Origin: Erysipelotrichales bacterium
Lineage (GTDB): Bacteria; Bacillota_I; Bacilli_A; RF39; UBA660
NCBI GenBank assembly: GCA_022508565.1
Contig: JAFLUY010000006.1
Location: 45,149-109,148, forward strand
Length of the DNA stretch: 64,000 nucleotides
Reading direction: 5' to 3'
The translations under genes and the position numbers were made by a program. Positions 8,573 to 63,733 of the stretch are shown here, in pieces; position 1 is the stretch's first letter; each line of letters begins with the position of its first letter. Under the pieces are notes generated by a model that was not told the DNA's origin, did not search any database, and was given only the letters and a program-made list of their open reading frames with translations.

Positions 8573-8657
8573 TGGTGCGGGTAACAGGAGTTGAACCTGC
8601 ACGGATTACTCCACTAGATCCTAAGTCTAGCGCGTCTGCCAATTCCGCCATACCCGC
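8573..8657 (-). tRNA. tRNA-Leu (anticodon UAG), long variable arm, CCA encoded
   Basis: The reverse complement folds as a cloverleaf: acceptor GCGGGTA/TACCCGC, anticodon stem CTAGA/TCTAG with the loop CTTAGGA. Confidence 0.85.
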
Positions 8658-8664
8658 AAAAAAA

Positions 8665-8741
8665 ATGGTGGATCTTGTAGGACTCGAACCTACGACCGCC
8701 CGGTTATGAGCCGGATGCTCTAACCAACTGAGCTAAAGATC
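8665..8741 (-). tRNA. tRNA with CAU anticodon, most likely tRNA-Ile2 (lysidine); elongator Met not excluded
   Basis: The reverse complement GGATCTTTAGCTCAGTTGGTTAGAGCATCCGGCTCATAACCGG...CCA, by recall, resembles the Bacillus subtilis tRNA-Ile(LAU) more than the elongator tRNA-Met. Confidence 0.8.
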
Positions 8742-8844
8742 CGTGAGCCATTGCTCTATAAATATAACATAATTTTTTTAGTTGTGCAATAACTTTTTGT
8801 CTTGTATTCCAATTTATGTTATTATATTCAGCAGGTGATTAATC

Positions 8845-12586: not shown

Positions 12587-12621
12587 AATTTACCTTATGG
12601 TAAATTTTTTTGGAGGAAAAT

Positions 12622-13668
12622 ATGGACGAAAAAGAAATCTTAGAGACTAAATATAAATTTTTTGAGTGTTTAATAGAATATAAAGAGCTAATAGAAGAAT
12701 ATTCTAAATTGGTACATAATTCTAGTGTTAAAATTAAAAGGTGTCTAGAGCGGTCTTATAATGCTAAAGATATTGCTAATGTTCGTTTTAAAAATATTGA
12801 AAACATGTTACACAATAAGCTTGTGTTTTTAGCAAAATTTTTTAACCAAAGAAATATAAATATGTTTTATTTTCAAAACCCTGAAGACGGTCAAGTATAT
12901 GCTGTTAATTTCTTTGGTAAACATATTCTTGGATACTATACATCATATTTTTCTCATTGTTTTGATTTAATTGCAGATGTCACTGATTTAACTGAAAAAT
13001 TAGCTAAAAGAATTGCTATTTATCCTTTTTGTCATAGTATAACTGCTCTATGTTCAAAGATTAACAATGGAAATGTTTATTCTTATGATAAAAAGTGTTT
13101 AGAGATAATTGCTGAGATACAACAAAAATATGCAGAGTATATTGAACTTGAAGAAAATTTATACAAAAATACACTTGATGGTGAATATCTAGATATGGTT
13201 AAATTTTATATTATTTTGATTCTTGGACAATCTAATAATAAAAAATATACTGAAGATGAGATTGGAGTATACTATCTAATTGATTGTGATTTTTGTAGAG
13301 TTTTTGGTCGCGAAGACCTTATTGAAGAAATTACAAAGATATATAAAGATTGTATGGAAAAAATGGGCTATGATCCTGAATTAATAGAGGATGATAAAAC
13401 TCCTTTCTTTACTAAATATGTTGATCCGAACTTTGATCCTCGAGAATTTATTTATAAAAGCATATCAGAACTAGCTGCTTATAAAGTAAGAAATGATTTT
13501 GCACAAATTGATGCATTATTTAAAGAAATGGCAGCATCAATTCCTTTAGCTGAAGAAGCAATTGAAAATTTAGAATTTAGTAATGATTCCTTAATGGGAG
13601 AGGATAATAAAGAAGATAATATTGGAGAAGAAGTAGGAACAGAAGAACAAATAAAAAGAATTCATTAA
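12622..13668 (+). CDS. hypothetical cytoplasmic protein (349 aa)
   Basis: GGAGGA RBS 5 nt upstream of the ATG at 12622. No recognisable motif. Confidence 0.55.
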   Translation: MDEKEILETKYKFFECLIEYKELIEEYSKLVHNSSVKIKRCLERSYNAKDIANVRFKNIENMLHNKLVFLAKFFNQRNINMFYFQNPEDGQVYAVNFFGKHILGYYTSYFSHCFDLIADVTDLTEKLAKRIAIYPFCHSITALCSKINNGNVYSYDKKCLEIIAEIQQKYAEYIELEENLYKNTLDGEYLDMVKFYIILILGQSNNKKYTEDEIGVYYLIDCDFCRVFGREDLIEEITKIYKDCMEKMGYDPELIEDDKTPFFTKYVDPNFDPREFIYKSISELAAYKVRNDFAQIDALFKEMAASIPLAEEAIENLEFSNDSLMGEDNKEDNIGEEVGTEEQIKRIH

Positions 13669-15332
13669 GAATTCTTTTTATTTGTTATTTCTTCTTCAGT
13701 ATCTTCAATTAATACTGCATGGACAACATGTCTTGTAGTATGTGAAAAACATGTTGATAATGTTAGTATTTTTGAATTGGCATTTAGTGGAACATTAAAG
13801 TTTTTCTTACTACGCGCTACTAACATATTTAAGAAATTCATATATTCTTCATCACTAACAAATTCGTTTTTCAAATAATCTTCTGTTTCATTAATTTGAT
13901 ATAATGAGAAAATTTGCCATTTCATATTTTTAGTCTGGGTATTAAATGTAATGATTTGGTTAGATGTATTGTTATACCAATTTTTATTCATCATGTTTTT
14001 GATTGTTCCAAACATTATACCTTGTTTAATATTATGTCCATATATAATTGTATTTCTATCTAAATTTTCTGGATCATTACGATAATCCATAAATATCCAA
14101 CCCATACTATTTTTCTTTTTGTAATAGTCACGATTTAAATAGTAAGAATTTGTCTCAGCTTGAACAACCGGATAGTTAATTTTTGTATTATTTACTTGAA
14201 CCCAACCAACTGTGTCATTATTTATTTTAAGCAAGTTTTCAAATACTTGGTCAAAATTTGTGTAATAAGATGAAATATAGTTACTTTTCTTTTTAGTAGT
14301 AGTTTCGGAATCGATATCTATATAATCTACATCACTTTCCGAATCATCAATATCTAAATATTCTTCAGACTCTTTTAAGATTGATTCAATATCAATAAGC
14401 TCTGATTCAATTTTATTTTGATCTTTATATTGTTGATAACTGTTTATTACTACGATAAGAGAACTTAAAATAATGATAAATAAAATAATAGATGTAAACA
14501 TTTTAAAGTTAATTTGTTTTATGAAATTAACTCTTTTATATTCTTTTGAGTAATTAAGTCTAAATCTAATATTATTTTCTTCAAAATATTTATGATATGT
14601 TTTCTTTAAATAATTAACCGAATTATATATTGAATTTAAATCATTATTTTTTTCATTAGTTTCAATCGTAATATTTCCTTTTTTATTTTCGATTATTTCG
14701 TTAACAATCGTTGTTAGTATTTCATTAGAGTAGGACACTATTTTTATTACTCTTAGTTTTGAATTTAGATTCATAAACATTTTAAATTCTTCTAAATCTT
14801 TTGAATCAAATTCGTGACTAATAACAATATATTTTTTATAATAAATATCCGAATAACTCATAAGTTCATTTATAATCATAAACTTAGAAGATGTGTTAAT
14901 ATTATTTCTGATTTTTACTTTAATATTTTTATTCATATCTAATCTTTCAACTAAATATGCAGGTATTTCAAAACATTCTATTTCTTCAATATAGTTATTA
15001 TCTGATAAAAGTAAGAATATATCGAGATTTATAGTTTTATCTGGTTTAAAAATAATTGTTTTAATATAAGAACATTCATTGATCAGTTTTAATACTGTTG
15101 ATGCAATTTCAAAATTATTGATTTGAAGTTTTGTTATATTTCCTTTAAGTATTACTAGATTAATAAAGTTAGAGACTAGTTCAAAATTTTCTTCAATATA
15201 AGGTTTTGAAAACTTCAAATCTTTGATATCGATAATATTAGTATTGTTTAAACTTTTATAGTCGACATCTTTTTTTACTTTTGAAACTATAAGAGTATTT
15301 GTTGATATTTTAAAATCGATATTATAGTTCAT
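13665..15332 (-). CDS. class B-like sortase with a 270-aa N-terminal cytoplasmic extension (LRR-like) preceding the TM anchor
   Basis: C-terminal half has class-B sortase hallmarks (VGWVQV..NYPVVQ, NSMGWIFMDYRN, IYGHN, TLSTC). A single TM segment (FTSIILFIIILSSLIVVI) lies at about residue 280. Confidence 0.7.
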   Translation of the reverse strand: MNYNIDFKISTNTLIVSKVKKDVDYKSLNNTNIIDIKDLKFSKPYIEENFELVSNFINLVILKGNITKLQINNFEIASTVLKLINECSYIKTIIFKPDKTINLDIFLLLSDNNYIEEIECFEIPAYLVERLDMNKNIKVKIRNNINTSSKFMIINELMSYSDIYYKKYIVISHEFDSKDLEEFKMFMNLNSKLRVIKIVSYSNEILTTIVNEIIENKKGNITIETNEKNNDLNSIYNSVNYLKKTYHKYFEENNIRFRLNYSKEYKRVNFIKQINFKMFTSIILFIIILSSLIVVINSYQQYKDQNKIESELIDIESILKESEEYLDIDDSESDVDYIDIDSETTTKKKSNYISSYYTNFDQVFENLLKINNDTVGWVQVNNTKINYPVVQAETNSYYLNRDYYKKKNSMGWIFMDYRNDPENLDRNTIIYGHNIKQGIMFGTIKNMMNKNWYNNTSNQIITFNTQTKNMKWQIFSLYQINETEDYLKNEFVSDEEYMNFLNMLVARSKKNFNVPLNANSKILTLSTCFSHTTRHVVHAVLIEDTEEEITNKKNS

Positions 15333-15390: not shown

Positions 15391-15437
15391 TTATCAAATA
15401 ATTAGATTTGACATATTATATAATTAAGTGTTATTAT
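15391..15437 (+). promoter_or_regulatory. candidate sigma-A promoter for the T-box/thrS transcript (TTGACA at 15408 with an 18-nt spacer and TATTAT)
   Basis: Hexamer match by eye; an alternative -35 lies at 15391. Confidence 0.35.
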
Positions 15438-15448
15438 ATGGGTGTAAA

Positions 15449-15652
15449 TCGATGAAGAAGGATACGATTATTAATTAGTCACTTAAAGAGAGTTTATGGT
15501 TGGTGGAAATAAACAGGAAGATTAATAGTTACTACCTTTTAAGAGAATTAATAAATTCCGGCTAATTACCGTTATTAAATTAAAGTAAGCTAAACTAAGG
15601 AATGGTACCGTGCTATGCACTTCTTGTATCATTCCTTTTTTTGTTTCTCAGG
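15449..15652 (+). promoter_or_regulatory. T-box riboswitch leader with a Thr (ACC) specifier and intrinsic terminator
   Basis: AGAGAG box near 15488, ACTACC specifier region near 15530, T-box sequence AAGGAATGGTACCGTG at 15597-15612, terminator AGGAATG...CATTCCT plus T7 at 15598-15650. Confidence 0.7.
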
Positions 15653-15659
15653 GGGTCTT

Positions 15660-16073
15660 ATGAAGAATATTGCTATTGATGATTATGTTGGAATGTCTAT
15701 GGCAGAGTTTTTACTTAATTATGCCAATTTAGATGATGATTTATCAACTGAACAAGTATTGGATATGGAGACAGCAAAGTTAACGCATCAAGATTTAACC
15801 AAACTTGGTTTACCTTATATAAAAAGGGTTCCGGTTGAGATTGTCACCGAAAATGATATATCTTCAGGCAAAATACTCATTGTCTATGATTTTAAAAGCA
15901 CAAAAAGTAATAAAAGGTGTGCGCCTTACTTAAGACCTGCATATGTTAAACAACTTGAGGAAGAGCAGTTAGCTTATATGCATCAAGATTGTGATGATGA
16001 TTCAAGACAGTCAAATGAAAAACAAACTTTAATAAGTAAAAAAGAAAAAATTAGAAAGAGGGAATTAAAATGA
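15660..16073 (+). CDS. small hypothetical protein (137 aa) between the T-box terminator and thrS; stop overlaps the thrS ATG (ATGA)
   Basis: GGGGG RBS 5 nt before the ATG at 15660. The ORF-track start at 15615 lies inside the terminator hairpin and was rejected. Confidence 0.55.
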   Translation: MKNIAIDDYVGMSMAEFLLNYANLDDDLSTEQVLDMETAKLTHQDLTKLGLPYIKRVPVEIVTENDISSGKILIVYDFKSTKSNKRCAPYLRPAYVKQLEEEQLAYMHQDCDDDSRQSNEKQTLISKKEKIRKRELK

Positions 16074-17836
16074 TTAATTTTAAAGAAGATGAAAGATTAA
16101 ATAAGTTAAATCATAGTTGTGCACATTTAATGGCACAAGCTGTTAAACACTTATTTCCAGATGCAAAATTCTGGGTAGGTCCAGTTATTGAAACAGGTTT
16201 TTACTATGATATTGATTTAGGAGATAAAGTTATTAATGATGAAGATATTGAAGCTATCTCTAAAGAAATGAAAAAACTTGTAAAAGATGGAAAAAGAATT
16301 GTTAGAAATGAAATTTCTAAAGCAGAAGCATTAGACCAATTTAAAGATGATGAGTATAAAATTGATTTAATATCAAGAATGGACGAAAACGAAGTAACTA
16401 TTAGTACTTATACTCAAGGAGATTTTACTGACCTATGTCGTGGACCACATGTTGATACAGTTAAAGAATGTAAGTATTTTAAACTTATCAAATTTAGTGG
16501 AGCATACTGGAAGGGTGACGTAAATAATAAAGTTTTACAAAGAATCTATGGAGTATGTTTTGATACAGAAGAAGATTTAAATAATTATTTACAAGAACTT
16601 GAAGATGCTAAAAACAGAGATCACAGAAAACTTGGTAAAGAATTAGGCCTTTTCATGACTAGTGATCTTGTAGGCAAGGGTCTTCCAATGTATTTACCAA
16701 ACGGTTATGTAATTTGGGATGAATTCGAAAGATATATTAAAGAAAAAGAAAGAAAATTAGGCTATAAGCATGTTTTAACTCCACCACTTGGAAATGTTGA
16801 GTTATATAAGACAAGTGGACACTGGGAACATTATAAAGATGGAATGTTTCCTAAAATGGAAGTTGAAGGAGAAGAATTTGTACTTCGTCCAATGAATTGT
16901 CCACATCATATGATGATTTATGCAAATGATATTCATTCCTATCGTGATTTACCACTTCGTATTGGAGAAGTTGCAAGAGATTGTCGTTTCGAATCAAGCG
17001 GTTCTTTAAAAGGAATTGAAAGAGTAAGATCATTTTGTCAAAATGATGCGCATCTTTTTGTAACTCCAGAACAAATTGAGTCTGAATTTAAAGCAGTAGT
17101 TAATTTAATATTGGAAGTTTATAAAGATCTTAATATTACCGATTACCACTTTGAGTTATCTTTAAGAGATAAAGAAGATAAAATTAAATATCATCCAGAC
17201 GATGAAATGTGGGATAATGCAGAAAATAAATTAAGAGAAGTATTAGATAGTATTGGTATACCTTATGTTGAAAGAATTGGCGAGGCAGCATTCTATGGAC
17301 CAAAACTTGATGTTCAAGTAAAACCAGCTGTTGGAAACGAATATTCTTTATCAACATGCCAACTAGACTTCTGTTTGCCAGCACGTTTTGATTTAACTTA
17401 TGTAGATAGTGATGGCAATAAAAAGACTCCTGTTGTTCTTCATAGAGCAATTCTTGGTAGTATAGATAGATTCATAGCTTATTATCTAGAAGAGACTAAG
17501 GGAGCTTTACCACTTTGGTTAAGCCCAGTTCAAGTTTCAGTATTACCTGTTAATAATGAATATCATTTAGAATATGCAAAGAAAGTAACAGAATTGTTGC
17601 AAGTTAATGATATAAGAGTAGAACTTGATAGTAGAGAAGAAAAACTAGGTTATCGTATGAGAGAAAGTCAAATGCGTAAAATACCTGTGTCACTAGTCTT
17701 AGGTAATAATGAAAGAGATGAAGAAACTGTAACTTTAAGATTCTATGGTAGTGAAGATAAGAAAACAATGCCTTTAGATGAATTCGTTTCATATATTAAG
17801 GAAAATAAAGAAAAAAGAACTAGAGTTTTAAATTAG
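16070..17836 (+). CDS. thrS: threonyl-tRNA synthetase lacking the N-terminal TGS (N1) domain
   Basis: HSCAHLMAQA editing-domain motif at residue about 15, class II aaRS core, C-terminal anticodon-binding domain. Collinear with ThrRS from a later point in the protein. Confidence 0.95.
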   Translation: MINFKEDERLNKLNHSCAHLMAQAVKHLFPDAKFWVGPVIETGFYYDIDLGDKVINDEDIEAISKEMKKLVKDGKRIVRNEISKAEALDQFKDDEYKIDLISRMDENEVTISTYTQGDFTDLCRGPHVDTVKECKYFKLIKFSGAYWKGDVNNKVLQRIYGVCFDTEEDLNNYLQELEDAKNRDHRKLGKELGLFMTSDLVGKGLPMYLPNGYVIWDEFERYIKEKERKLGYKHVLTPPLGNVELYKTSGHWEHYKDGMFPKMEVEGEEFVLRPMNCPHHMMIYANDIHSYRDLPLRIGEVARDCRFESSGSLKGIERVRSFCQNDAHLFVTPEQIESEFKAVVNLILEVYKDLNITDYHFELSLRDKEDKIKYHPDDEMWDNAENKLREVLDSIGIPYVERIGEAAFYGPKLDVQVKPAVGNEYSLSTCQLDFCLPARFDLTYVDSDGNKKTPVVLHRAILGSIDRFIAYYLEETKGALPLWLSPVQVSVLPVNNEYHLEYAKKVTELLQVNDIRVELDSREEKLGYRMRESQMRKIPVSLVLGNNERDEETVTLRFYGSEDKKTMPLDEFVSYIKENKEKRTRVLN

Positions 17837-17863
17837 TAAGTGAAAAATCACTTACTTTTTTTA
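17837..17863 (+). terminator. intrinsic terminator after thrS (GTAAGTGA-AAAA-TCACTTAC plus T7)
   Basis: Perfect 8-bp stem followed by a T-run. Confidence 0.6.
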
Positions 17864-17955: not shown

Positions 17956-17996
17956 TTGACAAATTATTTTGATATTAATATAATGTTAATAACAAG
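17956..17996 (+). promoter_or_regulatory. sigma-A promoter (TTGACA-17-TATAAT) with an overlapping conserved 21-mer TAATATAATGTTAATAACAAG (palindromic core TGTTAATAACA); candidate NrtR operator
   Basis: Consensus hexamers. The 21-mer is identical to a second copy at 22994-23014. Confidence 0.6.
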
Positions 17997-18071: not shown

Positions 18072-18824
18072 ATGAATAATAACAAAGAACAAAGAGAAAT
18101 TTTAAGATTAATTAGAAAGATGAATCCAGAGCAAAGGGAAATTTTTGACGGATTACTTGAAGATGTTAAAAAATTATCAAATGAAGCAAAAGAAAAGGGG
18201 GTAACTGAAAAACAATTTACTAAAGCTTTATTTATAGTAGATATGAATAATGGGTTTGTTAATTTCGGAGCTATGGCTAATACAGAATATAATGCTTTAG
18301 TTCCTGAACAGCTTAAACTAATTGAAAGATTTAGGAAAGAACAACAATTAGTAAACTTCATTTTAGAAGGACATATTGAAGAAGCAGTTGAGTTCTTACT
18401 ATACCCACAACATTGTGTATTAGGAACACCTGAAGCAGAATTAATTCCAGAGTTTAAAGATGAACAAGATAAAGAAAATACAAAAGTTTATTATAAAAAC
18501 TCAATTAATGGAGCATTAAACTTAGACTTACAAATTGATTTAGAAGACTTACGTGATTTAAAAGAAATAGTTGTTTGTGGAGTATGTACAGATCTATGTG
18601 TATTAGATTTTGTAAGAACACTTGCAAGATACTTAGATGAAATTAATCACAAAGTTCAAATCTTTGTTGTAGCAAGTGTATGTAGTACATTTGATGCTCC
18701 AGGACATGAAAGAACTGAAGAAGAAAAACTAGCTTATAGAATGATGAGAGCTGCTGGTGTTGAAGTAGTAGCCAATATGGAAGAACTAGAACAAAGAGAG
18801 AAAGTTTTAGGCTTAGCAGCTTAA
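18072..18824 (+). CDS. pncA: nicotinamidase, isochorismatase family, with a 45-aa N-terminal extension
   Basis: AAGGAGAG RBS. ALFIVDMNNGF and VCGVCTDLCV catalytic-Cys motif. Confidence 0.75.
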   Translation: MNNNKEQREILRLIRKMNPEQREIFDGLLEDVKKLSNEAKEKGVTEKQFTKALFIVDMNNGFVNFGAMANTEYNALVPEQLKLIERFRKEQQLVNFILEGHIEEAVEFLLYPQHCVLGTPEAELIPEFKDEQDKENTKVYYKNSINGALNLDLQIDLEDLRDLKEIVVCGVCTDLCVLDFVRTLARYLDEINHKVQIFVVASVCSTFDAPGHERTEEEKLAYRMMRAAGVEVVANMEELEQREKVLGLAA

Positions 18825-18843
18825 ATATTAGGAGGAAAATATT

Positions 18844-20370
18844 ATGAAATTATATAACGGTTATGAAAATGAAAGATTAGCAAGAAATTATACATTATTA
18901 AGTGATCAATATCAATTCAATATGGGGTGTGGTTATTTAGTATCAGGGAAAAAAGATACAGAAGCAGTGTTTGATGTTTTCTTTAGAAAGGTTCCAACTA
19001 ATGGTGGATATGCTGTAATGGCAGGTTTAGATAAAATAATTCCATTCATTCAAAACTTAAAATTTGATGAAAGAGATTTAGATTATTTTAGAAGAAATAA
19101 TTATCCAGAGGAATACATTGAATATTTAAAAAACTTTAAATTTCATGGAACAATTACTGCTATTCCTGATGGAACACCAGTATTTCCAAATGAGCCATTA
19201 ATCACAGTTAAAGCTCCAATTATTGAAGCTCAAATATTAGAAACTTGTATTTTATCAATAATTAATGGCGCTATGGAGCACGCAACAGGAGCTAGAAGAA
19301 TAATTGAAGCAACTCCAGATAAAAAAGATGTAATTGTTTTTGATGCTTCAGACTTTAGAAAACCTAAAGACCCAAAAGCAGTTATGGAATTTGGTTTAAG
19401 AAGAGCAGATGGACCCGAAGCTGGTATCGATGCTTCTATTTATGGAATTATGGCAGGATGCGCTGGAACTAGTAATGTAATGGTTGCTAATATGCTAAAT
19501 ATTAAAGCAATGGGCACAATGGCTCACTCATGGATTGAAGCATTTGATTCAGAATATGAAGCATTCTTAAACTATGCAAAAATATATCCACAAGCTTGTA
19601 CTTTACTTGTTGATACATTTGATACTTTAAAAAGTGGTGTGCCAAATGCAATTAAAGTATTTGAATATATGAAAGAAAATGGAATGTCTCTTGATAACAT
19701 TGGTATTCGTATAGATTCTGGAGATCTAGCTTATTTATCAAAAGAAGCAAGACGCATGTTAGATGCTGCAGGATTTCCACAAGCTAAAATTTGCTTAAGT
19801 AATGGTCTTAACGCAAATACAATTGAAGATTTAACTAGACAAGGTGCTTGTTTTGACACTTTAGGAGTTGGAGATAATATTAGTAAGCCTGAAGGAAGAA
19901 TGGGTTGTGTATATAAACTTGTTGCTGAAAATGTAAATGGTATATGGCAACCAAAAATAAAATTAAGTGATTCTGAAATTAAAATTGTTAACCCAGATCA
20001 TAAAACATTATATCGCGCTTATGATAAAACCACGGGTTATGCACTAGCAGATATAATGACAAGACAAGGAGAAATCGTTAGCAATGATGATTTAATCATT
20101 ATTGATCCAGCTAATGCAAGCAAAAGTACAAAACTTAATAATTTCGAATTAAGAGAATTACATAAACCTATATTTGTAAATGGTGAACTAGTTTATGATG
20201 ACCCTAATATCGAAGTTAAAAAAGATTATTGTAATAACGAAATGGCTACACTTTATCCAGAAGTTAGAAGAACTACTAGTCCTCATCTATATCATGTGTC
20301 AGGTACAGAGGATTATGTTAAATTTAAACAAGAATTAATTGAACATCATAAAAGCCTAGTGTTAAAATAA
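18844..20370 (+). CDS. pncB: nicotinate phosphoribosyltransferase
   Basis: AGGAGG RBS. 508 aa; the N-terminal YQFNMGCGY region and overall length fit the NAPRTase family. Confidence 0.85.
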   Translation: MKLYNGYENERLARNYTLLSDQYQFNMGCGYLVSGKKDTEAVFDVFFRKVPTNGGYAVMAGLDKIIPFIQNLKFDERDLDYFRRNNYPEEYIEYLKNFKFHGTITAIPDGTPVFPNEPLITVKAPIIEAQILETCILSIINGAMEHATGARRIIEATPDKKDVIVFDASDFRKPKDPKAVMEFGLRRADGPEAGIDASIYGIMAGCAGTSNVMVANMLNIKAMGTMAHSWIEAFDSEYEAFLNYAKIYPQACTLLVDTFDTLKSGVPNAIKVFEYMKENGMSLDNIGIRIDSGDLAYLSKEARRMLDAAGFPQAKICLSNGLNANTIEDLTRQGACFDTLGVGDNISKPEGRMGCVYKLVAENVNGIWQPKIKLSDSEIKIVNPDHKTLYRAYDKTTGYALADIMTRQGEIVSNDDLIIIDPANASKSTKLNNFELRELHKPIFVNGELVYDDPNIEVKKDYCNNEMATLYPEVRRTTSPHLYHVSGTEDYVKFKQELIEHHKSLVLK

Positions 20371-20386
20371 AGAAAGGAATAAAGAC

Positions 20387-20989
20387 ATGAAAACTCGTAA
20401 GATTATAAGTGAGTTAGAGAGTATTAGAGATGAATTAAGCATCCTTAGTATAAGAAAAATACCAGATCTTGAGAAAAACTTTTTAACTGTTGAAACATAT
20501 CAAATTATTTTAAAAGATAATACAATTTTTAACCGCCAAAAACTTGTTAAGAATAAAAGAGATGGAAGTGCTGTTGTAGTTGTACCAATAACTAAAGATA
20601 ATAAGTCTTTAGTTATTGTGCAACCACGTGTATTTTCTGAATCAGGCATAGGTGTTGAAATTCCTGCTGGTTATATTGATCCTGGAGAGACTCCAGAAGA
20701 TGCAGCTATTAGAGAGTTAAGAGAAGAAACAGGGTATGATTGTGAAAAACTAATTCCACTTAAATCTTACTATCAAGATCAAGGTATAAGTGGAGCACAC
20801 AATACATGCTTTTTAGCTCTAGGTTGTGAGAAGAAATATGATCAAAGGTTAGATCGTGATGAGTACATAAAATATTTAGAATGTACATTTAATGATTTAG
20901 TTTATTTAGTTAATAATGGTATTATTAATGATGCTAATGGTATAATAGCTATAAACGAAGCAAAGAAGTATTTGCGAAAACTAAGATAG
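20387..20989 (+). CDS. NUDIX hydrolase (ADP-ribose pyrophosphatase-like)
   Basis: Nudix box GYIDPGETPEDAAIRELREETGY. Confidence 0.8.
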   Translation: MKTRKIISELESIRDELSILSIRKIPDLEKNFLTVETYQIILKDNTIFNRQKLVKNKRDGSAVVVVPITKDNKSLVIVQPRVFSESGIGVEIPAGYIDPGETPEDAAIRELREETGYDCEKLIPLKSYYQDQGISGAHNTCFLALGCEKKYDQRLDRDEYIKYLECTFNDLVYLVNNGIINDANGIIAINEAKKYLRKLR

Positions 20990-63656: not shown

Positions 63657-63733
63657 TGGTGGAGAATAGGGGATTCGAACCCCTGACCCCCACGGTGCAA
63701 GCGTGGTGCTCTAGCCAGCTGAGCTAATTCCCC
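63657..63733 (-). tRNA. tRNA-Ala (anticodon UGC), G3:U70 pair present, CCA encoded
   Basis: The reverse complement GGGGAATTAGCTCAGCTGG...CTTGCAC...CTATTCTCCACCA has the acceptor stem with the G3-U70 wobble. Confidence 0.9.

What the first reader, a model, noticed from the sequence alone, without database searches (positions are those of the whole stretch)
15391..17863. Thr T-box leader controls a bicistronic unit: a novel 137-aa ORF plus a thrS lacking the N-terminal TGS domain
The T-box (AGAGAG box, ACC specifier, T-box sequence AAGGAATGGTACCGTG, terminator plus T7) ends at about 15650. A well-positioned GGGGG RBS and the ATG at 15660 open a 137-aa ORF whose TGA overlaps the thrS ATG (ATGA at 16070). 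The ThrRS itself starts about 60 residues late relative to canonical bacterial ThrRS: HSCAHL is at residue 15 instead of about residue 70, so the TGS (N1) domain is absent. The upstream ORF does not read like a TGS beta-grasp domain. It could be a co-regulated accessory factor, or a replacement for N1 function.
Basis: partly seen in the sequence, partly recalled or inferred. Interest (0 to 1): 0.5.

Follow-up and report, generated by a model that had tools for sequence, protein, structure and literature searches.

The report
Orphan small gene between T-box and thrS
A threonine-sensing RNA switch in a gut Erysipelotrichales genome controls two genes, a normal-for-this-group shortened threonyl-tRNA synthetase preceded by a real 137-residue protein of a new family with an unrecognised fold that is found almost only at this spot, which turns out to be a rapidly changing cargo slot in related genomes.

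Summary
A Thr T-box leader (15443-15643), a 137-aa ORF (15660-16073) and a TGS-less thrS (16070-17836, ATGA overlap) form one compact unit. One correction: the specifier is ACU (15531-15533), not ACC.

The ORF is a real gene. dN/dS is 0.22 against a sister contig, versus about 1.0-1.2 in shifted frames. It founds a small unannotated family ("A"): 24 cluster representatives among 1.8 billion proteins. Its AlphaFold model is confident (pLDDT 90.6) and has no significant PDB or viral fold match. It is not a TGS domain or a split-off piece of thrS.

The missing N1 domain is not special. All 80 nearest thrS genes lack it, and about 25 of them follow the T-box directly with no ORF.

What is new is the context. 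In Erysipelotrichales-like gut Bacilli, the gap between the Thr T-box and thrS is a variable slot. It holds family A, a second novel family B (sometimes fused to A), MBL hydrolases, nucleotidyltransferases with or without NUDIX, RNase R-type genes or short coiled-coil ORFs. Slot content changes at least 37 times on an 85-leaf tree.

Families A and B occur almost nowhere else, and A co-diverges with thrS. Function is inferred only: most likely a ThrRS/tRNA-Thr-linked accessory or signal-output protein made when tRNA-Thr charging falls.

The parts
15408..15437 (+). Sigma-70-type promoter: TTGACA, 18 nt, TG-n-TATTAT
   Evidence: Consensus scan gives 11/12 matches with an extended -10 TG, about 6 nt before the leader. 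This is a consensus match only. The number of promoter-like sites in the region is not above shuffles.
15443..15643 (+). Thr-specific T-box leader: Stem I with specifier loop, reduced Stem II, Stem III, then antiterminator/terminator
   Evidence: RF00230 at 66.1 bits, E 2.4e-14, full model span. A homologous leader is found in nearly all related thrS loci. Ten copies were Rfam-verified.
15531..15533 (+). Specifier codon ACU (Thr), followed by the conserved purine A at 15534
   Evidence: Register comes from the Rfam alignment. ACU is invariant while the next bases vary in 68 aligned leaders.
15597..15625 (+). T-box sequence and antiterminator: AGGAA / UGGUACC bulge / GUGC-UAU-GCAC / UUCUU
   Evidence: The consensus fold of 19 loci gives 8 pairs, 5 with compensatory double changes and an invariant UGGUACC bulge.
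15597..15643 (+). Competing intrinsic terminator: 12-bp stem AAGGAAUGGUAC/GUAUCAUUCCUU, then U7
   Evidence: Recovered in both the MFE and centroid folds and visible in the sequence. The simple terminator scan missed it because of its large loop.
15650..15655 (+). Shine-Dalgarno AGGGGG for the 137-aa ORF
   Evidence: Read from the sequence, 4 nt before the ATG. L003 has a similar GGGGG before its ORF.
15660..16073 (+). 137-aa protein, founding member of novel family A: conserved ~95-aa domain plus a variable charged helical tail
   Evidence: dN/dS 0.22 over codons 1-100, versus 1.03 and 1.22 in shifted frames. 24 cluster representatives by exhaustive HMMER. AF2 pLDDT 90.6. No family or fold match.
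16056..16062 (+). thrS ribosome-binding site (AAGAGGG), inside the 3' end of the upstream ORF
   Evidence: Read from the sequence. The ATGA stop/start overlap at 16070-16073 implies translational coupling, which is an inference.
16070..17836 (+). thrS: threonyl-tRNA synthetase of 588 aa with N2 editing, catalytic and anticodon-binding domains, and no N1/TGS
   Evidence: TIGR00418 at 687.8 bits against a cutoff of 383.65. Pfam domains. Alignment to 1NYQ and 1QF6 starts at their residues 66 and 60.
17835..17863 (+). Intrinsic terminator closing the operon
   Evidence: 9-bp stem, 4-nt loop and a T run.

Best explanation
**Shown from sequence.**
- A promoter and a Thr-specific (ACU) T-box attenuator drive a two-gene operon.
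- Uncharged tRNA-Thr should stabilise the antiterminator (UGGUACC bulge). Otherwise the 12-bp/U7 terminator ends transcription 17 nt before the first gene.
- The first gene encodes a genuine 137-aa cytosolic protein of a previously undescribed, fast-evolving family (A). Its confidently predicted fold has four short helices, a beta-hairpin with a lysine/arginine-rich loop and a long C-terminal helix, and has no recognisable relatives.
- Its stop codon overlaps the start of thrS (ATGA), so the two are probably translated in a coupled way.
- The ThrRS lacks N1, as every close relative does. It is otherwise complete, with the HxxxH and CRGPH editing motifs visible in the sequence.
- Family A is one of several alternative occupants of a variable slot between the Thr T-box and thrS in Erysipelotrichales-like gut Bacilli.

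**Inferred.**
- Families A and B are found almost only in this slot, and A has co-diverged with thrS.
- A is therefore most likely a dispensable partner of the ThrRS/tRNA-Thr system, or an output protein of the tRNA-Thr charging signal. It would be made only when charging falls, the same logic as anti-TRAP under the Trp T-box.
- It is not an N1 substitute.
- Its biochemical activity is unknown.
For: **Operon anatomy.**

**Same layout in a sister species.** L003 has the T-box, a 143-aa ORF and thrS.

**Purifying selection.** dN/dS is 0.22 for the ORF, against 0.10 for thrS, 0.14 for the neighbouring gene and about 1.0-1.2 for the off-frame controls.

**Real fold.** pLDDT rises from 62.6 with 2 sequences to 90.6 with 31 sequences.

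**Family A sits in the slot.**
- It lies between leader and thrS in the window, L003, 17 of the 80 genome loci and L088-L091.
- The leader is Rfam-verified in 9 of these and found by the leader profile in the rest.
- Gaps from the A stop to the thrS start are mostly 13 nt or less, or overlap.

**Co-inheritance.** Mantel r is 0.49 between family-A and ThrRS identities, with 0 of 5000 permutations as high.

**Family B is linked to A and to the slot.**
- B is adjacent to A in L004 and L005, and fused to A in P0017 and P0018.
- Three independently retrieved B proteins all sit between the thr leader and an N1-less thrS in different neighbourhoods.

**Precedent for the logic.** Anti-TRAP is induced by uncharged tRNA-Trp through a T-box (PMC10327191). 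T-box-linked hypothetical genes next to synthetase genes have been listed before (PMC2494555, Table 2).
Against: - There is no direct evidence of any interaction with ThrRS or tRNA.
- About 25 relatives with the same N1-less ThrRS have no slot gene, so A is dispensable.
- The slot also accepts plainly unrelated enzymes (MBL hydrolase, NTase, NUDIX, RNB). It therefore tolerates passengers.
- A evolves fast: median identity 27% against 75% for ThrRS.
- In L085, A lies upstream of the T-box, possibly outside its control.
- The weakest family member, P0032, is not next to thrS.
- Domain and tail charges are not consistently basic.
- No fold match gives a biochemical handle.
- Co-transcription is inferred, not measured.
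Confidence: 0.5

Rival explanations
1. Operon passenger. The Thr T-box/thrS junction is simply a permissive insertion site with a strong, conditionally read-through promoter. Family A is a lineage-specific orphan whose function has nothing to do with threonine, ThrRS or tRNA-Thr.
For: - The slot holds at least five unrelated families plus singletons, and changes state at least 37 times on an 85-leaf tree.
- Decayed or truncated occupants exist, such as the 48-aa family-B remnant in L012.
- A Ser T-box in L031 likewise carries a DUF1653 gene before serS.
- A is fast-evolving and dispensable.
Against: - Families A and B, unlike the enzyme passengers, are found essentially only in this slot. This holds across thrS divergence down to about 68% identity and family-A divergence down to about 16-25% identity.
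- With such high turnover, an unrelated passenger would be expected to appear elsewhere too.
- A stays next to thrS even when the T-box position differs, as in L085.
Confidence: 0.33
2. Inducible protection factor. The T-box also fires when ThrRS is inhibited or tRNA-Thr is damaged, so slot genes would be defences against ThrRS inhibitors or tRNA-targeting toxins or phage. This would cover A and B as well as the hydrolase, NTase, NUDIX and RNase R occupants.
For: - Rapid turnover and fast evolution are typical of conflict genes.
- The occupants include RNA- or nucleotide-acting enzyme classes: RNB, NTP_transf_2, NUDIX and MBL fold.
- The induction logic follows from established T-box biology, which is an inference.
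Against: - PADLOC finds nothing for A or B and only weak generic NTase hits for D.
- There are no phage or mobile-element hallmarks at the locus.
- No immunity-protein or resistance-enzyme similarity was found.
- The idea is purely speculative.
Confidence: 0.1
3. N1 surrogate or split gene. The 137-aa protein would replace the missing TGS domain in trans, or would be a diverged TGS fragment separated from thrS by a frameshift.
For: - Its position is immediately 5' of an N1-less thrS, with an overlapping stop and start.
Against: - No TGS Pfam hit at E up to 0.1.
- The family-A profile finds nothing in PDB sequences.
- All 80 nearest thrS genes are N1-less, with stop codons closing the frame within about 30 codons or fewer upstream. 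About 25 of them have no ORF at all.
- The ORF is in a different frame and twice the size of N1.
Confidence: 0.03
4. Not a gene: a chance ORF in an AT-rich spacer.
For: The genome is 26.7% GC, where long ORFs are unusual rather than common. The only arguments are the lack of annotation and the lack of homologs in the first search.
Against: - dN/dS of 0.22, with off-frame controls near 1 and full of stops.
- A conserved family with invariant H43, G70 and Y90.
- A high-confidence AF2 model that depends on the alignment.
- A good RBS.
Confidence: 0.02

Closest known systems
B. subtilis at operon (rtpA/yczA-ycbK): anti-TRAP under a Trp T-box
   Same: A small non-synthetase protein is placed directly behind a T-box. 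It is therefore made only when the cognate tRNA is uncharged, and it converts tRNA charging status into a protein-level output (PMC10327191; cited in PMC2494555).
   Different: - Anti-TRAP is a zinc-binding, Cys-rich trimer that binds TRAP. Family A has no conserved Cys; its invariant residues are H43, G70 and Y90.
- The fold is unrelated and no target is known.
- Family A is co-encoded with the synthetase itself rather than in a separate operon.
T-box-linked 'tRNA-ligase related hypothetical' genes in streptococci (e.g. S. pneumoniae spr1471, Thr T-box; Wels et al. 2008, PMC2494555, Table 2)
   Same: A hypothetical ORF is annotated behind a Thr T-box next to thrS. This is the same kind of gene arrangement, already noted in comparative T-box surveys.
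   Different: - Homology to family A was not tested because those genomes could not be fetched here.
- Nothing in that survey describes a variable slot, the A and B families, or their fold.
ThrRS N1 (TGS, PF02824) domain
   Same: It would occupy the same position, immediately N-terminal to the N2 editing domain.
   Different: No sequence or fold similarity. A has about 95 structured residues, mostly helical, whereas TGS is a beta-grasp of about 60 residues. The N1-less state is ancestral for the whole clade and independent of A.
Free-standing synthetase partners: crenarchaeal split ThrRS-cat/ThrRS-ed, AlaX, YbaK, Trbp111/Arc1p (from my own knowledge)
   Same: The concept of a separate polypeptide that complements or assists an aminoacyl-tRNA synthetase.
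   Different: Those are recognisable homologs of synthetase editing domains or of OB-fold tRNA-binding domains. Family A matches none of them. The window's ThrRS keeps its own N2 editing domain.
Canonical Firmicute T-box-thrS unit (B. subtilis thrS/thrZ type)
   Same: Thr specifier, T-box sequence and terminator/antiterminator switch. About 25 of the related loci have exactly this direct layout.
   Different: - Here and in about 45 related loci, 0.2-2.3 kb of coding cargo is inserted between the leader and thrS.
- The leaders are compact, with a truncated Stem II, and score below Rfam's gathering cutoff.

Membership tests
T-box leader (Rfam RF00230) | Covariance-model score at or above the curated gathering score (93 bits) | tested here: not met
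   66.1 bits, E 2.4e-14, full-length match. All ten related leaders tested score 48-83 bits. The shortfall is due to a deleted Stem II segment in the alignment.
T-box leader (Rfam RF00230) | Stem I specifier loop with a codon followed by a purine, matching the regulated gene's amino acid | tested here: met
   ACU plus A at 15531-15534. ACU is invariant in thrS leaders, while leaders before serS carry UCU in the same register.
T-box leader (Rfam RF00230) | Conserved T-box sequence forming an antiterminator with a UGGN bulge, supported by covariation | tested here: met
   AAGGAAUGGUACCGUG at 15597-15612. In 19 loci the bulge is invariant and 5 of 8 pairs show compensatory changes.
T-box leader (Rfam RF00230) | Mutually exclusive intrinsic terminator with a U run before the regulated ORF | tested here: met
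   A 12-bp stem sharing its 5' arm with the antiterminator, then U7, 17 nt before the ATG.
T-box leader (Rfam RF00230) | tRNA-dependent antitermination in vivo or in vitro | not testable with these tools
   Needs transcription assays or RNA-seq.
TGS domain (PF02824) / ThrRS N1 | Sequence match to the TGS profile | tested here: not met
   No Pfam hit at E up to 0.1 for the 137-aa protein. The family-A profile finds nothing in PDB sequences at E up to 10.
TGS domain (PF02824) / ThrRS N1 | Beta-grasp (ubiquitin-like) fold | tested here: not met
Threonyl-tRNA synthetase (TIGR00418 thrS) | Equivalog score above cutoff, with SAD editing, class II core and anticodon-binding domains | tested here: met
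   687.8 bits against a cutoff of 383.65. PF07973, PF00587 and PF03129 are present. E 6e-215 to 1NYQ.
Threonyl-tRNA synthetase, canonical bacterial architecture | N-terminal N1/TGS domain | tested here: not met
   The alignment starts at residue 66 of 1NYQ and residue 60 of 1QF6. The same is true for all 80 nearest relatives.
Anti-TRAP-like T-box output protein | Expression placed under a T-box | tested here: met
   By sequence anatomy only.
Anti-TRAP-like T-box output protein | Homology to anti-TRAP (Cys-rich zinc-binding motif) | tested here: not met
   Family A has no conserved Cys. Its invariant columns are H43, G70 and Y90. No NCBIfam or Pfam hit.
Anti-TRAP-like T-box output protein | Binds and modulates a regulator or enzyme | not testable with these tools
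   Needs pull-downs or two-hybrid assays.
Winged-helix DNA-binding proteins (MarR/PadR-like) | Significant structural match to a wHTH fold | tested here: not met
   Only sub-threshold Foldseek hits: E 1.6-5, probability 0.1 or less, TM about 0.2.
Known anti-phage defence systems (PADLOC) | Profile match | tested here: not met
   No hit for A or B.

The most novel reading that the evidence does not exclude
Families A and B are dedicated, previously unknown partners of the N1-less ThrRS/tRNA-Thr system in reduced-genome gut Bacilli. They would be T-box-induced proteins that bind ThrRS, tRNA-Thr or a downstream regulator. In that way they would tune charging or editing, or broadcast the tRNA-Thr charging signal. 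The T-box-thrS junction would then be a genuine evolutionary cargo slot, where genes useful under tRNA-Thr stress are repeatedly gained, swapped and lost.
Probability: 0.3. Interest if true: 0.7.

Novelty: new variant of a known kind. Interest (0 to 1): 0.5.

Why it matters
T-box operons are usually seen as a leader plus a synthetase, biosynthesis gene or transporter. In one clade of gut Bacilli, the space between a Thr T-box and thrS repeatedly acquires and exchanges cargo genes. Two of the cargo families (A and B) exist essentially nowhere else, and family A's confident structural model matches no known fold.

If A and B act on ThrRS or tRNA-Thr, they would be new synthetase cofactors or new protein outputs of a tRNA-charging sensor, comparable to anti-TRAP. 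If they are passengers, the locus is still a clean natural example of a riboswitch-controlled insertion hotspot.

The result also corrects a tempting misreading. The N1-less ThrRS is the clade's normal enzyme and includes cultured Faecalibacillus, Erysipelatoclostridium and Coprococcus. It is not a truncation compensated by the upstream ORF.

Tried and rejected
**Library and profile searches**
- The default Rfam gathering scan missed the T-box. An E-value scan recovered it.
- Pfam, NCBIfam, PHROGs, PADLOC and PDB-sequence searches of the 137-aa protein and of the family-A profile found nothing usable. The only hit was one PHROG of unknown function at E 0.084.
- The word-indexed search with the single protein found only one homolog. 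tblastn on related loci and exhaustive HMMER were needed to find the family.

**Structure**
- AF2 with 2 sequences gave a poor model, pLDDT 62.6.
- The afdb50 library was unavailable.

**Ideas tested and dropped**
- TGS or split gene: rejected (see rivals).
- The family-B 'IYPDG' motif as a TGS-like start: no Pfam or PDB-sequence support.
- Basic C-terminal tail as a nucleic-acid-binding signature: not consistent across the family.
- Family E as a detached C-terminal module of long family-A proteins: no cross-hits between the profiles.
- The ORF as a Thr-rich leader peptide: 7 Thr in 137 residues, which is unremarkable (by eye).
- Code-4 read-through fusing the ORF to thrS: the frames differ, and a TAA follows within about 10 codons (by eye).

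**Other limits**
- The whole-leader MFE z-score (-0.56) is uninformative for this AT-rich RNA.
- No second thrS, TGS-like stretch or second family-A copy lies in the 64-kb window.
- PMC15985 (Sarsero et al. 2000) is not held in the paper library.
Full report
**1. What is in the window**

The window is 26.7% GC. It matches a contig of an Erysipelotrichales metagenome-assembled genome, where the ORF is annotated as hypothetical protein J1F35_04765.

From 15408 to 17863 on the + strand the sequence reads as one compact unit:
- A TTGACA-18-TG-TATTAT promoter-like site at 15408-15437.
- A T-box leader. Rfam RF00230 spans 15443-15627 over model positions 1-219, at 66.1 bits and E 2.4e-14.
- AGGGGG at 15650-15655 and an ATG at 15660 opening a 137-codon ORF.
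- The ORF's TGA (16071-16073) overlaps the ATG of thrS at 16070.
- thrS ends at 17836, inside a 9-bp hairpin followed by a T run.

The T-box is below Rfam's gathering score of 93, so the default scan missed it. The alignment shows the deficit is a deleted Stem II segment. Ten related leaders all score 48-83 bits. The MFE and centroid folds recover Stem I and a terminator whose 12-bp stem (AAGGAAUGGUAC/GUAUCAUUCCUU) is followed by U7.

Across 19 loci carrying a family-A gene, the consensus fold of the 3' region is the textbook antiterminator. It has an AGGA/UCCU helix, an invariant UGGUACC bulge and an upper helix. Five of the 8 pairs show compensatory double changes and only one cell is broken.

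One detail of the finding needs correcting. In an alignment of 68 homologous leaders, ACU followed by A or C is invariant, with ACC in one leader. Leaders preceding serS carry UCU in the same register. The specifier is ACU at 15531-15533, which is still threonine.

**2. The ThrRS**

The 588-aa product is an unambiguous ThrRS. TIGR00418 scores 687.8 bits against a cutoff of 383.65. Pfam finds tRNA_SAD, tRNA-synt_2b and HGTP_anticodon, and no TGS. Residue 6 aligns with residue 66 of S. aureus ThrRS (1NYQ) and residue 2 with residue 60 of E. coli ThrRS (1QF6). Exactly the N1 module is missing and nothing else.

This is not a peculiarity of the window. I fetched the 80 closest thrS loci from one-genome-per-species contigs (68-88% identity). 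They include Faecalibacillus faecis, Erysipelatoclostridium sp., Coprococcus hominis and many uncultured Bacilli, Erysipelotrichaceae and Lachnospiraceae. In every one the reading frame closes within 0-27 codons upstream of the aligned start. N1-less ThrRS is the ancestral, normal state of this whole group.

**3. The ORF is a real gene and founds a small new family**

A sister contig (L003) has the same leader, a 143-aa ORF and thrS. Nucleotide identity is 88% in the leader, 87% in thrS and 80% in the upstream gene, but only 69% in the ORF.

Even so, dN/dS for the first 100 codons is 0.22. The same DNA read in the two shifted frames gives 1.03 and 1.22 and is full of stops. thrS gives 0.10 and the upstream gene 0.14. 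The ORF is therefore a protein-coding gene under purifying selection, but a fast-evolving one.

tblastn and profile searches found relatives in the same position in 17 of the 80 genome loci. An exhaustive HMMER scan of 1.84 billion cluster representatives found only 24 with E of 0.001 or better, mostly 97-130 aa.

The family, which I call A, shares a domain of about 95 residues with invariant H43, G70 and Y90 and near-invariant F17, V75, D77 and P93 (window numbering). Longer members add a C-terminal 'YEL..LL...RREL' module that the window's copy lacks. No member carries any Pfam annotation or informative name.

**4. Structure**

With two sequences AlphaFold gave pLDDT 62.6. With the 31-sequence family alignment it gave 90.6, above 94 for residues 11-100, with pTM 0.74. 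The model has helices at 14-22, 30-38, 43-49 and 64-69, a hairpin at 72-76/87-91 whose loop is KSTKSNKR, and a long helix at 93-136.

No search found a significant structural neighbour:
- Foldseek against the PDB: best E 0.9.
- Foldseek against BFVD: best E 0.23.

No TGS, ubiquitin-like or ThrRS chain appears. With the negative Pfam and PDB-sequence profile results, this rules out a diverged or split-off TGS domain. The fold has no recognisable relative in the libraries I could search. AFDB was unavailable.

**5. The unexpected context: a variable slot**

A leader profile built from the Rfam-verified copies detects the homologous Thr leader in nearly all loci. The distance from leader to thrS falls into two classes:
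- About 25 loci have the classical layout, 13-120 nt.
- About 45 loci have 0.2-2.3 kb of coding sequence in between.

Clustering and Pfam show what fills the slot:

| Occupant | Description | Loci |
|---|---|---|
| A | Novel family, the window's kind | window, L003 and 17 genome loci |
| B | Second novel family, about 150-180 aa, 'IVLIYPDG.vE.IP...H..Y....S.RF'; single, tandem or triple | L006, L010, L015, L020; after A in L004, L005 |
| C | MBL-fold hydrolases (PF13483) | L009, L014, L016, L024, L032, L044 |
| D | NTP_transf_2 nucleotidyltransferases, sometimes preceded by a NUDIX gene | L026, L043, L047, L070 |
| RNB | RNase R/II-type genes of about 770 aa | L007, L013 |
| E | Coiled-coil ORFs of about 60-78 aa | L011, L017, L039, L044 |
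| Others | Singletons and a truncated family-B remnant | remnant in L012 |

On a neighbour-joining tree of ThrRS, which is crude, slot content changes at least 37 times among 85 leaves and presence of A at least 13 times. The variable slot is confined to the Erysipelotrichales-like part of the tree. The Lachnospiraceae-type clade is uniformly direct or has no leader detected by this profile. A Ser T-box in L031 similarly has a DUF1653 gene before serS, so the habit is not strictly limited to thrS.

**6. Evidence that A and B are tied to thrS**

- Of the 24 distinct genomic contexts I could examine for family A, 22 are between the Thr leader and thrS. In one of these (L084) the contig ends before thrS is reached.
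- In L085 the order is A, T-box, thrS.
- Only the weakest member, P0032, lies elsewhere.
- Family-A pairwise identities correlate with ThrRS identities (Mantel r 0.49, 0 of 5000 permutations as high). Median identity is 27% for A against 75% for ThrRS. A has mostly been inherited together with thrS for a long time while diverging rapidly.
- A and B are neighbours in L004 and L005, and are fused into one polypeptide in P0017 and P0018. L084 shows a T-box terminator, then the A-B fusion, then another B gene.
- Three family-B proteins retrieved independently from the protein database all lie between the thr leader and an N1-less thrS, in three different neighbourhoods.

By contrast, the enzyme occupants (MBL, NTase, NUDIX, RNB) belong to ubiquitous superfamilies.

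**7. How it most likely works**

Shown: the sequence elements of a Thr-tRNA-responsive transcription attenuator sit directly in front of the ORF. There is no room for a terminator or promoter between the ORF and thrS. The thrS RBS lies inside the ORF's 3' end, and stop and start overlap.

Inferred: both proteins are made from one transcript when uncharged tRNA-Thr stabilises the antiterminator, and thrS translation is coupled to that of the ORF.

For the protein's role I commit to a dispensable partner or output protein of the ThrRS/tRNA-Thr system, at about 0.4-0.5. The basis is its slot exclusivity, its co-inheritance and the A-B linkage. The regulatory logic is that of anti-TRAP, which is induced by uncharged tRNA-Trp through a T-box (PMC10327191).

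The main rival, at about 0.33, is that it is a passenger in a permissive site. A speculative variant, at about 0.1, is that slot genes protect against ThrRS inhibitors or tRNA damage. The N1-surrogate idea is essentially excluded.

Against my preferred reading:
- There is no interaction evidence.
- A is dispensable in about 25 relatives.
- L085 places A outside the leader.
- Charge is not consistently basic.
- The fold gives no biochemical clue.

**8. Relation to what is known**

T-box surveys already list hypothetical genes behind T-boxes next to synthetase genes, for example S. pneumoniae spr1471, 'Thr-tRNA ligase related hypothetical' (PMC2494555, Table 2). That survey found 8% of T-boxes in front of genes of unknown or unrelated function. 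The arrangement itself is therefore a known kind.

New here:
- Family A and family B.
- The apparently novel fold of A.
- Their near-exclusive residence in this slot.
- The rapid turnover of slot content in one clade.

I found no paper describing these, within the limits of the held library. I rate it a new variant of a known kind, with interest about 0.5.

**9. Caveats**

- Most loci are MAG contigs, and some carry implausible bin names such as 'Muribaculaceae'.
- The tree is NJ on 330 residues and the parsimony counts depend on it.
- Leader detection outside the ten Rfam-verified cases rests on an nhmmer profile.
- A second, N1-containing thrS elsewhere in these genomes cannot be excluded from a 64-kb window.
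- Nothing about expression or function has been measured.

Noticed in passing
L004-L083 (e.g. L009:2375-3004, L043:2222-3001, L007:684-3008, L026:1384-2720, L011:2819-3001): The gap between the Thr T-box and thrS is a variable slot. In different species it holds MBL-fold hydrolases, NTP_transf_2 nucleotidyltransferases (sometimes with NUDIX), RNase R/II-type RNB genes of about 770 aa, or coiled-coil ORFs of about 60 aa. About 25 loci have no insert.
   Followed up: yes
L005:2448-2990, L006:2441-3004, L010:312-1718, L092:3001-3852, L094:66-965, L096:3001-3906: A second novel family (B, 'IVLIYPDG...H..Y....S.RF') occurs single, in tandem or in triplicate, and always between the thr leader and thrS. 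It is fused to family A in P0017 and P0018. It has no Pfam match, and only 14 clusters were found in 5.8 billion proteins.
   Followed up: partly
family B profile (alignment A4), positions 56-152: The family-B profile hits the C-terminal half of the human RabGAP1 TBC domain (PDB 4nc6_A) at E 1.3e-06, 31.9 bits. I cannot tell whether this is homology or chance.
   Followed up: no
L085:21-816: In a relative whose thrS is 86% identical to the window's, the order is family-A gene, T-box (Rfam 78.4 bits), thrS. The leader's position relative to the cargo gene therefore differs between species.
   Followed up: partly
L031:4787-6526: A Ser-type T-box (UCU in the specifier register) is followed by an 84-aa DUF1653 gene and then serS. 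This is the same 'gene between T-box and synthetase' layout for another synthetase. In L009 the Ser T-box abuts serS directly.
   Followed up: partly
L012:2805-2951; L063, L067 (564 nt) and L027, L040 (192 nt) between leader and thrS: L012 holds a truncated 48-aa remnant of family B. Four loci have long leader-to-thrS spacers with no ORF and no detectable remnant. Both are consistent with decay of former slot genes.
   Followed up: partly
L090:2-1720, L087:2-1027, L006:9-320, L029:1597-2580: RNB (RNase II/R-like) genes recur as neighbours just upstream of the thr leader. In L086 and L087 one sits directly upstream of the most divergent family-A-like gene, which is not next to thrS.
   Followed up: no
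window 13665-15332 (-) and upstream: There is a 555-aa protein with a C-terminal sortase domain (PF04203) and an N-terminal region of about 370 aa with no match. It is divergently oriented from the thrS promoter. Further upstream lie SpaA-type pilin and a second sortase, which looks like a pilus cluster.
   Followed up: no
window 18072-20989 and beyond: Directly downstream of thrS, behind a 12/12 consensus promoter at 17956-17984, lies an NAD salvage cluster. It contains an isochorismatase/nicotinamidase-like gene, NAPRTase, NUDIX and then an NAD synthase with a CN-hydrolase domain.
   Followed up: no
window 8576-8657, 8669-8742, 63660-63733 (all - strand): Three tRNA genes. None was checked for being tRNA-Thr.
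   Followed up: no
window 12610-13668 (+): A 352-aa ORF with a TTG start and no Pfam match, convergent with the sortase-like gene.
   Followed up: no
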